A model generated the notes under the pieces. It searched no databases and was not told the origin of the DNA. It saw only the letters and a list, made by a program, of their open reading frames with translations. The position numbers and the translations under genes are program-made. Source: Gamaleyavirus NAN33P5. Taken from it: a stretch of DNA of 64,000 nucleotides. Where the stretch lies: sequence record OZ035750.1; one strand, written 5' to 3'. Of this stretch, positions 32,373 to 32,888 are shown in pieces (position 1 is the stretch's first letter; each line of letters starts with the position of its first letter).

Positions 32373-32888
32373 CTACAGAATTACCCAGTCTTCAGCTAAT
32401 ACATCCGATTGGGATGGAACCCAAGGCATAAACTGGTCATCAACAGTTTTGATGCCCAACCAATCCCGTTTCTCGCATACGGTATTCTCATGTTTATCCA
32501 TAGCCCAATTTTCACCAGGTACTAGGGTGATATACATTCCCTTACCATTCCAGCCTTTACGGGTCAGTCTGTGACCTAGTTTTATAAGTTCTACTGCGTG
32601 ACCAAAAGTACAACCCTTATCTACATCACAATATGCAGCTTCAAATGCAGCCCTCGGTGACCAGCTAATATAACCACGGAATTGCTTATGGTTAGGATTA
32701 GAATCCGGGTATTCTACTAAGTAACCTACTTCTAATGGGTCTTCATTAGCAGGCACATCCCAGCCACGAAGTTTGCAATATGTTTCCTTGTTCATCCGGA
32801 ATCCATTTACACACTTGGTTCCGATGTAGTTGGTGAAGTGAACTTTAATTTCTTCGGACATAACTACCTCAAATGATAAAGCCCTCAC
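32373..32888 (-). CDS. DUF2829/Tad2-like domain protein (candidate anti-Thoeris sponge)
   Basis: C-terminal half 'FGHAVELIKLGHRLTRKGWNGKGMYITL...PWVPSQSDVLAEDWVIL' matches my recollection of the DUF2829 (Tad2) signature; N-terminal 90 aa unknown. Confidence 0.4.
   Translation of the reverse strand: MRALSFEVVMSEEIKVHFTNYIGTKCVNGFRMNKETYCKLRGWDVPANEDPLEVGYLVEYPDSNPNHKQFRGYISWSPRAAFEAAYCDVDKGCTFGHAVELIKLGHRLTRKGWNGKGMYITLVPGENWAMDKHENTVCEKRDWLGIKTVDDQFMPWVPSQSDVLAEDWVIL

What the first reader, a model, noticed from the sequence alone, without database searches (positions are those of the whole stretch)
32373..32888. Candidate Thoeris anti-defense protein (DUF2829/Tad2-like domain) next to the tRNA island
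The C-terminal approximately 80 aa ('...RKGWNGKGMYITL...PWVPSQSDVLAEDWVIL') resemble my recollection of the DUF2829 signature, the fold of Tad2 sponges that sequester Thoeris signalling nucleotides. Here it is fused to an unknown roughly 90-aa N-terminal domain, in a small cluster of unknown genes (32133-33529) that could be an accessory/anti-defense islet.
Basis: partly seen in the sequence, partly recalled or inferred. Interest (0 to 1): 0.6.

Follow-up and report, generated by a model that had tools for sequence, protein, structure and literature searches.

The report
Two-domain Tad2 immune-signal sponge gene
This gene of an N4-like E. coli phage very probably makes a "sponge" protein that soaks up the alarm molecules of the bacterial Thoeris defence; the kind is already known, and its extra front domain turns out to be a shared, still unexplained partner of many such sponges.

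Summary
The gene on the minus strand (real start ATG 32861, stop 32373; 162 aa) ends in a Tad2-like/DUF2829 domain: Pfam PF11195 scores 84 bits against a cut-off of 25. The predicted fold matches Tad2 crystal structures. Eight of the ten gcADPR-contact residues of SPO1 Tad2 are identical.

The window is a Gamaleyavirus-type N4-like phage, and the gene is 86% identical to N4 gp49. The next gene upstream (32980-33360) is the ortholog of N4 gp48, an Acb4 cyclic-dinucleotide sponge. The cluster lies in the "anti-signalling hotspot" between primase and virion RNA polymerase that a 2026 preprint describes for N4-like phages. Public records of relatives already label the gene DUF2829 or "Thoeris anti-defense 2-like", so the main finding is correct but not new.

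The N-terminal ~75 aa are more interesting:
- They match no Pfam, NCBIfam or PDB entry.
- They form a domain family with more than 2,700 cluster representatives.
- The domain is fused, in any order, to Tad2, Sequestin, Acb4, the Acb2/Tad1 hairpin, Lockin and RyR-Tad sponge domains.
- It is homologous to the N-domain of RyR Tad, which forms a domain-swapped dimer and had no anti-type-I-Thoeris activity on its own.

No function was tested here.

The parts
32373..32861 (-). Coding sequence of the two-domain protein (162 aa plus stop); ortholog of phage N4 gp49.
   Evidence: ORF. The ATG has a GAGG 5 nt upstream. It is 86% identical to N4 gp49, matches phrog_872 over its full length at 1e-64, and has 539 homologs with the same architecture.
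32376..32612 (-). Tad2-like (DUF2829, PF11195) domain, residues 84-162; predicted binding module for ADPR-derived signals.
   Evidence: Pfam 84.4 bits. PDB sequence hits to ModTad2 and SPO1 Tad2. AF2 model with pLDDT 90 matches 8SMF, 9EIB and 8V3E. The SPO1 contact residues map to W104, N105, I137, T139, D141, W147, S150 and D153 (identical), S152 (conservative) and M145 (changed).
32622..32840 (-). N-terminal ~73-aa Tudor/SH3-like beta-barrel domain (residues 8-80) that accompanies sponge domains; it has no family name.
32862..32899 (-). Leader with the Shine-Dalgarno GAGG (32867-32870) and an 8-bp hairpin (32879-32899) in the 118-nt spacer between the Acb4 gene and this gene.
   Evidence: In phages SP5M and 24-32N an extra 249-nt gene sits in this spacer.
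32980..33360 (-). Neighbouring Acb4-family sponge gene (PF13876); ortholog of N4 gp48. The open frame extends to an upstream ATG at 33372.
   Evidence: Pfam 87.8 bits. A family profile hits SPO1 Acb4 (9E4W) at 2.5e-8. It is 47% identical to N4 gp48. N4 gp48 is Acb4 (PMC12657230), and PF13876 is the Acb4 family (10.1101/2024.12.30.630793).
32133..32363 (-). Last gene of the cluster, 76 aa (phrog_9565), with only weak HTH / sigma-70 region 4 similarity. Absent from N4.
32099..32121 (.). Terminator-like hairpin between the convergent cluster and the virion RNA polymerase gene. Relatives annotate it as a terminator on both strands.
   Evidence: annotated as a terminator on both strands in phage SP5M.
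33344..33529 (-). First small ORF of the cluster (61 aa from a TTG; relatives annotate 52 aa), phrog_34266, unknown function.

Best explanation
The gene encodes a two-domain anti-defence 'sponge' and is the Gamaleyavirus ortholog of phage N4 gp49. The mechanism below is inferred from solved homologs, not shown for this protein. The C-terminal Tad2 domain assembles into a homotetramer. Its inter-protomer pockets, lined here by W104, N105, I137, T139, D141, W147, S150, S152 and D153, bind and sequester an ADP-ribose-derived signal made by a host TIR (Thoeris) protein. [quoted passage not shown] With the signal sequestered, the Thoeris effector is not switched on and the phage replicates. The N-terminal ~75-aa beta-barrel is a separate module that travels with many unrelated sponge domains. 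By homology to RyR Tad, its most likely role is a domain-swapped dimerisation or assembly module, and it may have a further activity not yet identified. The gene sits directly downstream of an Acb4 cyclic-dinucleotide sponge gene, in the variable anti-signalling hotspot next to the virion RNA polymerase gene. The phage therefore appears to carry inhibitors of both CBASS-type and Thoeris-type signalling side by side.
For: Domain membership: PF11195 at 84 bits, and phmmer hits to ModTad2, SPO1 Tad2, HgmTad2 and SptTad2. Fold: the AF2 model (pLDDT 90.2) matches 24 Tad2 chains at Foldseek probability 1.0 and nothing else. Pocket: 8 of 10 SPO1 Tad2 gcADPR contacts are identical and 1 is conservative. 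W104, N105, W147 and S150 are invariant, and T139 and D153 are at least 90% conserved, across 47 homologs down to 44% identity. Orthology and context: the protein is 86% identical to N4 gp49. The neighbour is the Acb4/N4 gp48 ortholog. The primase, Sak4-like, SSB and RuvC-like genes lie upstream in the order described for the hotspot. N-domain: it is homologous to the RyR Tad N-domain, which in the crystal structure is a beta1-swapped dimer. It is fused to six sponge families.
Against: No binding or phenotype data exist for this protein or for N4 gp49 in the literature I could search. [quoted passage not shown] One SPO1 water-mediated contact residue is changed (H71 to M145). Tetramer formation with an N-terminal domain attached next to helix alpha1 could not be modelled. 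The dimerisation role of the N-domain is extrapolated from a homolog at 29% identity. Its very strong conservation, and a stand-alone copy in Erwinia phage phiEaP-8, suggest it does more than dimerise.
Confidence: 0.75

Rival explanations
1. It is a sponge built on the Tad2 fold, but its physiological ligand is not a Thoeris signal. Candidates are Pycsar cUMP, CBASS cyclic dinucleotides or c-di-AMP-type decoy signals.
For: Tad2 homologs that bind cUMP and others that bind cGG or cGAMP are documented. The gene is paired with an Acb4 sponge in a locus aimed at several signalling systems.
Against: The canonical gcADPR pocket is conserved. Cyclic-dinucleotide binding in HgmTad2 and SptTad2 needs a 35-41-residue insertion between beta2 and beta5, whereas the insertion here is only 19 residues.
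Confidence: 0.1
2. The N-terminal domain carries the main or a second independent anti-defence activity. It could hold another ligand pocket, inhibit a host protein, or protect against decoy-signal guard systems. In that case the protein is bifunctional.
For: The domain is fused in variable order to six unrelated sponge families, including triple fusions. This is the same fusion logic that led to the discovery of Sequestin. About 23 positions are invariant or nearly invariant between phages of Proteobacteria and Clostridium. A stand-alone copy lies next to the vRNAP gene in phiEaP-8.
Confidence: 0.12
3. It is an anti-CRISPR of the AcrIIA7 type, as pharokka-style annotation of the relative Mimir124 says.
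For: AcrIIA7 (HgmTad2) carries the same DUF2829 domain. GenBank PQ310662 labels both this gene and the Acb4 gene 'anti-CRISPR protein'.
Against: AcrIIA7 was shown to be a gcADPR/cGG sponge, and Cas9 binding was never shown. The same label on the Acb4 gene shows that the annotation is a database artefact. From general knowledge, E. coli hosts have no type II-A Cas9 system.
Confidence: 0.02

Closest known systems
ModTad2 (Myroides odoratus prophage Tad2; PDB 8V3E, 9EIB with His-ADPR)
   Same: Best sequence match of the C-terminal domain (E=5.7e-17; 38 of 83 aligned positions identical). It shares the fold and the GWNGKG and SDxLAEDW motifs.
   Different: ModTad2 is a single-domain 88-aa protein, whereas this protein has an extra ~80-aa N-terminal domain. 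[quoted passage not shown] The specificity here is unknown.
SPO1 Tad2 (gp34.65; PDB 8SME/8SMF/8SMG)
   Same: Founding member of the family. It shares the fold, and 8 of its 10 1''-3' gcADPR contact residues are identical here. Its beta2-beta3 insertion is also short (24 aa against 19 aa here).
   Different: It is single-domain and from a Bacillus phage. H71 is replaced by M145 and T78 by S152.
HgmTad2/AcrIIA7 and SptTad2 (PDB 8KBI-8KBM, 8WJC, 8WJD)
   Same: They share the DUF2829 core and the gcADPR pocket.
   Different: They have a 35-41-aa insertion that forms a second pocket for cGG/cGAMP. That insertion is absent here.
RyR Tad (Pectobacterium phage CB1 gp68; bioRxiv 10.64898/2026.06.04.730250)
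   Same: It has the same N-terminal domain family (hhalign 95.8%, 29% identity), the same two-domain 'N-module + sponge' plan, and lies in the same hotspot of an N4-like phage.
   Different: Its sponge domain is an all-helical RyR Repeat12-like fold, not Tad2. It is a dimer, and its N-domain lacks several residues that are invariant in the N4 gp49 type.
Phage N4 gp49 (ABK54417) and Sf6-like Kapi1_043
   Same: N4 gp49 is the direct ortholog (86% identity) and lies in the same position next to the vRNAP gene. Kapi1_043 has the same two-domain architecture at 40% identity.
   Different: Neither has a published function that I could find. In N4 the 76-aa downstream gene is missing.
Multi-sponge fusion proteins (Pm86 Acb4-Tad2; Ab09 gp59 Acb4-Sequestin)
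   Same: They follow the same principle of joining immune-signal modules in one small protein.
   Different: In those proteins both halves are known sponges. Here the second half is a domain with no shown ligand.

Membership tests
Tad2 / DUF2829 (PF11195) sponge family | Significant match to the family HMM above Pfam's gathering score | tested here: met
   84.4 bits against a cut-off of 25, E=8.2e-24, profile positions 2-72 of 73.
Tad2 / DUF2829 (PF11195) sponge family | Tad2 fold (N-terminal helix followed by an antiparallel sheet with loop helices) | tested here: met
   The AF2 model has pLDDT 90. Foldseek gives probability 1.0 and target TM 0.7-0.85 to 8SMF, 8WJE, 9EIB, 8V3E, 8WJD and 8KBJ.
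Tad2 / DUF2829 (PF11195) sponge family | Conserved gcADPR-pocket residues (SPO1 W25, N26, I63, T65, D67, H71, W73, S76, T78, D79) | tested here: met
   8 identical, 1 conservative (T to S) and 1 changed (H to M). The core residues are invariant or at least 90% conserved in 47 homologs.
Tad2 / DUF2829 (PF11195) sponge family | Homotetramer with pockets at protomer interfaces | not testable with these tools
   Only monomer prediction was available. SEC-MALS or multimer modelling is needed.
Tad2 / DUF2829 (PF11195) sponge family | Binds and releases intact a TIR-derived signal, and relieves Thoeris defence | not testable with these tools
   No experimental data were found for this protein or for N4 gp49.
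Cyclic-dinucleotide-binding Tad2 subclass (HgmTad2/SptTad2) | Insertion of 35-41 residues between beta2 and beta5 that forms the cGG/cGAMP pocket | tested here: not met
   The insertion is 19 residues (P115-D133), against 24 in SPO1 Tad2, which does not bind cyclic dinucleotides.
RyR Tad N-terminal domain family (unnamed) | Sequence-profile homology to residues 1-70 of CB1 gp68 | tested here: met
   hhalign probability 95.8%, E=7.8e-9, 65 columns. hmmsearch E=2.4e-9. Foldseek hits a RyR-domain protein of Yersinia phage TG1 at probability 1.0.
RyR Tad N-terminal domain family (unnamed) | Domain-swapped dimer through strand beta1 | not testable with these tools
   Reported for gp68 in the preprint. 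The coordinates are not in the PDB copy searched.
Acb4 (PF13876), for the neighbouring gene 32980-33360 | Family HMM match and homology to a member shown to work | tested here: met
   87.8 bits against a cut-off of 27. A family profile hits 9E4W at 2.5e-8. The protein is 47% identical to N4 gp48, which binds c-di-AMP and triggers Panoptes and PanDA.
Anti-CRISPR AcrIIA7 | Inhibition of Cas9 | not tested
   Only the shared DUF2829 domain links the two. The published reassessment treats the family as sponges.

The most novel reading that the evidence does not exclude
The N-terminal ~75-aa barrel is a distinct, unnamed and very widespread module (at least 2,700 clusters at 50% identity). It is dedicated to immune-signal interference and has an activity of its own. 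That activity could be a further ligand pocket formed in the oligomer, or a function that shields sponges from guard systems that sense signal depletion. If so, N4 gp49-type proteins are bifunctional, and the domain's still unidentified fusion partners mark further undiscovered sponge families.
Probability: 0.3. Interest if true: 0.7.

Novelty: new member of a known kind. Interest (0 to 1): 0.4.

Why it matters
The finding identifies N4 gp49 and its orthologs as probable Thoeris-signal sponges, placed beside the already proven Acb4 sponge. This fits the model phage N4 and its therapeutic relatives into the picture of a compact anti-signalling locus. The census of the N-terminal domain is the useful by-product. 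One small module is attached to six unrelated sponge families, in any order, which gives a simple sequence handle for finding sponge genes and new partner domains in phage genomes. It also poses a clear question: why do sponges that oligomerise by themselves so often carry this extra domain?

Tried and rejected
- **Internal duplication or a link to Acb4.** hhalign of the N-domain against the Tad2 domain and against Acb4 gave probabilities of 1% or less, so both ideas were rejected.
- **N-domain as Lockin, Acb5 or TadIV-1.** Rejected on the published descriptions. It instead occurs fused to Lockin.
- **N-domain as Tad3.** Could not be checked, because the Cell 2025 paper is not held.
- **The 'PDB 6E3C' extra domain** removed in Hadary et al.. 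I could not identify it. It is not Acb4, and it is not a close structural match of the N-domain.
- **Searches that gave little.** A single-sequence word-index search with the N-domain returned only 3 proteins. A literature search on 'Gp49/PF13876' returned unrelated papers. A supplement search of Hadary et al. found no N-domain motif. The afdb50 fold library was unavailable.
- **Other sponge genes in the window.** HMM scans for further Tad2, Acb4, Sequestin or N-domain copies found none.
- **The anti-CRISPR label** on relatives was considered and rejected as a database artefact.

Full report
**What is there.** The window is a Gamaleyavirus-type N4-like phage of the Schitoviridae. A 3,456-aa virion RNA polymerase gene ends at 32092 on the plus strand. 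The stretch 31500-34000 is 99.6% identical to Klebsiella phage vB_Kpl_K57alpha1.2 and 87-96% identical to many Escherichia Gamaleyavirus genomes.

Four small ORFs converge on the polymerase gene from the minus strand. They are bounded by terminator-like hairpins at 32099-32121 and 33536-33567:
- 33344-33529, 61 aa
- 32980-33360, 126 aa
- 32373-32861, 162 aa, the finding
- 32133-32363, 76 aa

The real start is the ATG at 32861. It has a GAGG 5 nt upstream, the GTG lies inside a hairpin at 32879-32899, and relatives annotate 489-nt genes. Two tRNAs lie at 33803-33958.

**The Tad2-like domain.** Residues 85-161 match Pfam PF11195 ('Thoeris anti-defense 2-like domain') at 84.4 bits against a cut-off of 25. 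By sequence alone they also match the solved proteins ModTad2 (5.7e-17), SPO1 Tad2 (7.7e-13), AcrIIA7/HgmTad2 and SptTad2.

An AlphaFold2 model built on 47 homologs has mean pLDDT 90.2. Foldseek against the PDB returns 24 Tad2 chains at probability 1.0 (target TM 0.6-0.85) and nothing else below E=0.7.

Yirmiya et al. list ten residues of SPO1 Tad2 that contact 1''-3' gcADPR or its bound waters. In the HMMER alignment, eight are identical here: W104, N105, I137, T139, D141, W147, S150 and D153. T78 becomes S152 and H71 becomes M145. W104, N105, W147 and S150 are invariant across 47 homologs down to 44% identity, and T139 and D153 are at least 90% conserved.

The insertion between beta2 and beta3 is 19 residues here. 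It is 24 in SPO1 Tad2 and 35-41 in the homologs that bind cyclic dinucleotides, so a second cGG/cGAMP pocket is not expected. Every testable membership criterion for Tad2 is met. Oligomeric state, ligand binding and phenotype could not be tested.

**Orthology and neighbourhood.** The protein is 86% identical to phage N4 gp49. The same two-domain architecture occurs in the Sf6-like phage Kapi1, in Vibrio podophages and in 539 database proteins.

The upstream neighbour at 32980-33360 matches PF13876 at 87.8 bits. Chang et al. showed that this family is the Acb4 sponge family. A profile of the neighbour's family hits the SPO1 Acb4 structure 9E4W at 2.5e-8. The neighbour is 47% identical to N4 gp48. 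N4 gp48 was shown to be an Acb4 that triggers Panoptes and binds c-di-AMP.

Further upstream on the same strand lie the following genes:
- a 139-aa ORF, 35761-36180
- a RuvC-like gene, 36182-36736
- SSB, 36736-37533
- a Sak4/RecA-like gene, 37574-38326
- the primase, 38383-40593

This is the arrangement Fedorova et al. (bioRxiv 2026) describe as an anti-signalling hotspot between the primase-polymerase and the vRNAP of N4-like phages. They report that it holds Tad2, Tad3, Acb4, Sequestin and RuvC-like Bes1 genes. Relatives carry an extra gene between the Acb4 and Tad2 genes, in line with a variable hotspot.

Public records already label orthologs 'DUF2829 domain-containing protein' or 'Thoeris anti-defense 2-like protein'. 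Some mislabel them 'anti-CRISPR protein' or 'terminase large subunit'.

The domain is strongly conserved, with a motif of roughly YIGTK..A.PM.R..Y...RGW.LP..E...D.GYLVEY.DG..N....GY(I/V)SWSPK..FE.AY. An exhaustive profile search finds 2,702 cluster representatives at E of 1e-3 or better.

Pfam scanning of the best 149 representatives gave these partner domains:

| Partner domain | Number of proteins |
|---|---|
| Tad2 | 51 |
| PF21825 (Sequestin) | 42 |
| PF13876 (Acb4) | 15 |
| Acb2/Tad1 hairpin | 2 |
| WDGH | 1 |
| AP2 | 1 |
| HNH | 1 |

Local HMMs show the domain at the N-terminus, in the middle or at the C-terminus, including triple fusions such as Acb4-N-Sequestin. Isolated phages give the same picture:
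- Inbricus and Axy13: N-Acb4-Sequestin
- Philippe: Acb4-N-Sequestin
- RHph_X2_28B: Acb4-N
- Clostridium phage CP51: N-Acb4
- Erwinia phage phiEaP-8: a stand-alone 78-aa copy directly next to the vRNAP gene

In the supplementary tables of Tal et al., the N-domain motif GYLVEY occurs 85 times among the Sequestin homologs, in a table that was truncated when stored. Two Lockin homologs there also carry the domain.

Foldseek against viral models also hits a RyR-domain protein of Yersinia phage TG1. The N-terminal domain of RyR Tad (Pectobacterium phage CB1 gp68) is homologous: hhalign gives 95.8% probability, E=7.8e-9 and 29% identity. Fedorova et al. call that domain a fold of unknown function. 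They found no anti-type-I-Thoeris activity for it alone, and in their crystal structure it forms a dimer by swapping strand beta1.

**How it most likely works.** The sequence and models support a canonical Tad2 domain with an intact ADPR-signal pocket, preceded by a sponge-associated module. The rest is inferred from solved homologs:
- The Tad2 domain tetramerises and sequesters a TIR-made signal, which keeps the Thoeris effector off.
- The N-module pairs by strand swapping and helps assembly.

Which signal is bound is open. The nearest solved relative, ModTad2, is specific for type II His-ADPR. Other Tad2 proteins take 3'cADPR, N7-cADPR or cUMP.

The N-domain may do more than dimerise. Its conservation across phages of distant hosts, its fusion to six unrelated sponge families and the stand-alone copy in phiEaP-8 all point that way. 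The only direct test on a homolog was negative for type I Thoeris.

**Verdict.** The finding is correct and well read. The gene belongs to a known family in a locus type that is now described, and it is already annotated as such in some relatives, so it is a new (uncharacterised) member of a known kind. I did not find the breadth of the N-terminal module's association with sponge domains stated in the papers I could read, and it gives a concrete, testable lead. None of the functional claims was tested here.

Noticed in passing
window 32980-33360 (-), possibly starting at 33372: The adjacent gene is an Acb4-family sponge (PF13876) and the ortholog of N4 gp48, at only 47% identity. A 2026 preprint notes that the relative Bas96 is not restricted by the Acb4-sensing PanDA system, unlike N4. 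The Gamaleyavirus Acb4 may therefore differ in ligand range.
   Followed up: partly
window 32133-32363 (-): A 76-aa ORF (phrog_9565) lies between the Tad2 gene and the terminator. It has only weak HTH / sigma-70 region 4 similarity. It is absent from N4 and is labelled 'putative ATPase subunit of terminase' in Shigella phage Moonfish, which looks like a misannotation.
   Followed up: partly
window 32879-32899: An 8-bp GC-rich hairpin lies in the 118-nt spacer between the Acb4 and Tad2 genes. A T-run follows it only on the plus strand, opposite to the genes. In phages SP5M and 24-32N a 249-nt extra gene occupies this spacer.
   Followed up: partly
window 33883-33958 (-): ARAGORN could not assign an amino acid to the second tRNA (anticodon loop read as 'ac'), and it scores only 42.5 bits in Rfam. 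Relatives annotate it as tRNA-Xle, tRNA-OTHER or tRNA-Val. The first tRNA is tRNA-Ile with the unusual anticodon AAT.
   Followed up: no
window 36182-36736 (-) and 35761-36180 (-): A RuvC-like protein (phrog_159; N4 gp46 position) and a 139-aa acidic protein sit in the positions where the preprint places Bes1 (RuvC-like) and Bes2, the 'broad evasion of signalling' genes. They are candidate orthologs.
   Followed up: partly
OY979416.1 (Klebsiella phage vB_Kpl_K57alpha1.2), record positions 1-2137: This is the closest public relative (99.6% identity). It annotates the Tad2 gene as 'terminase large subunit', and the record seems to start inside this locus. That is probably an annotation or permutation artefact.
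   Followed up: no
proteins P0179/P0189, P0192, P0260: Some N-domain proteins carry partner domains with no sponge assignment. P0179 and P0189 share a '...DYAWGWHCNIAMAAFDAGCPH...' domain, P0192 has a long (~155-aa) unassigned N-terminal extension, and P0260 probably carries the single WDGH domain found in the Pfam census. By the fusion logic these are candidates for further signal-interfering modules.
   Followed up: no
L010 (Erwinia phage phiEaP-8) 2504-2740: A stand-alone 78-aa copy of the N-domain lies directly next to the virion RNA polymerase gene, at the position of the N4 gp49-type gene. There is no room for a C-terminal sponge domain.
   Followed up: partly
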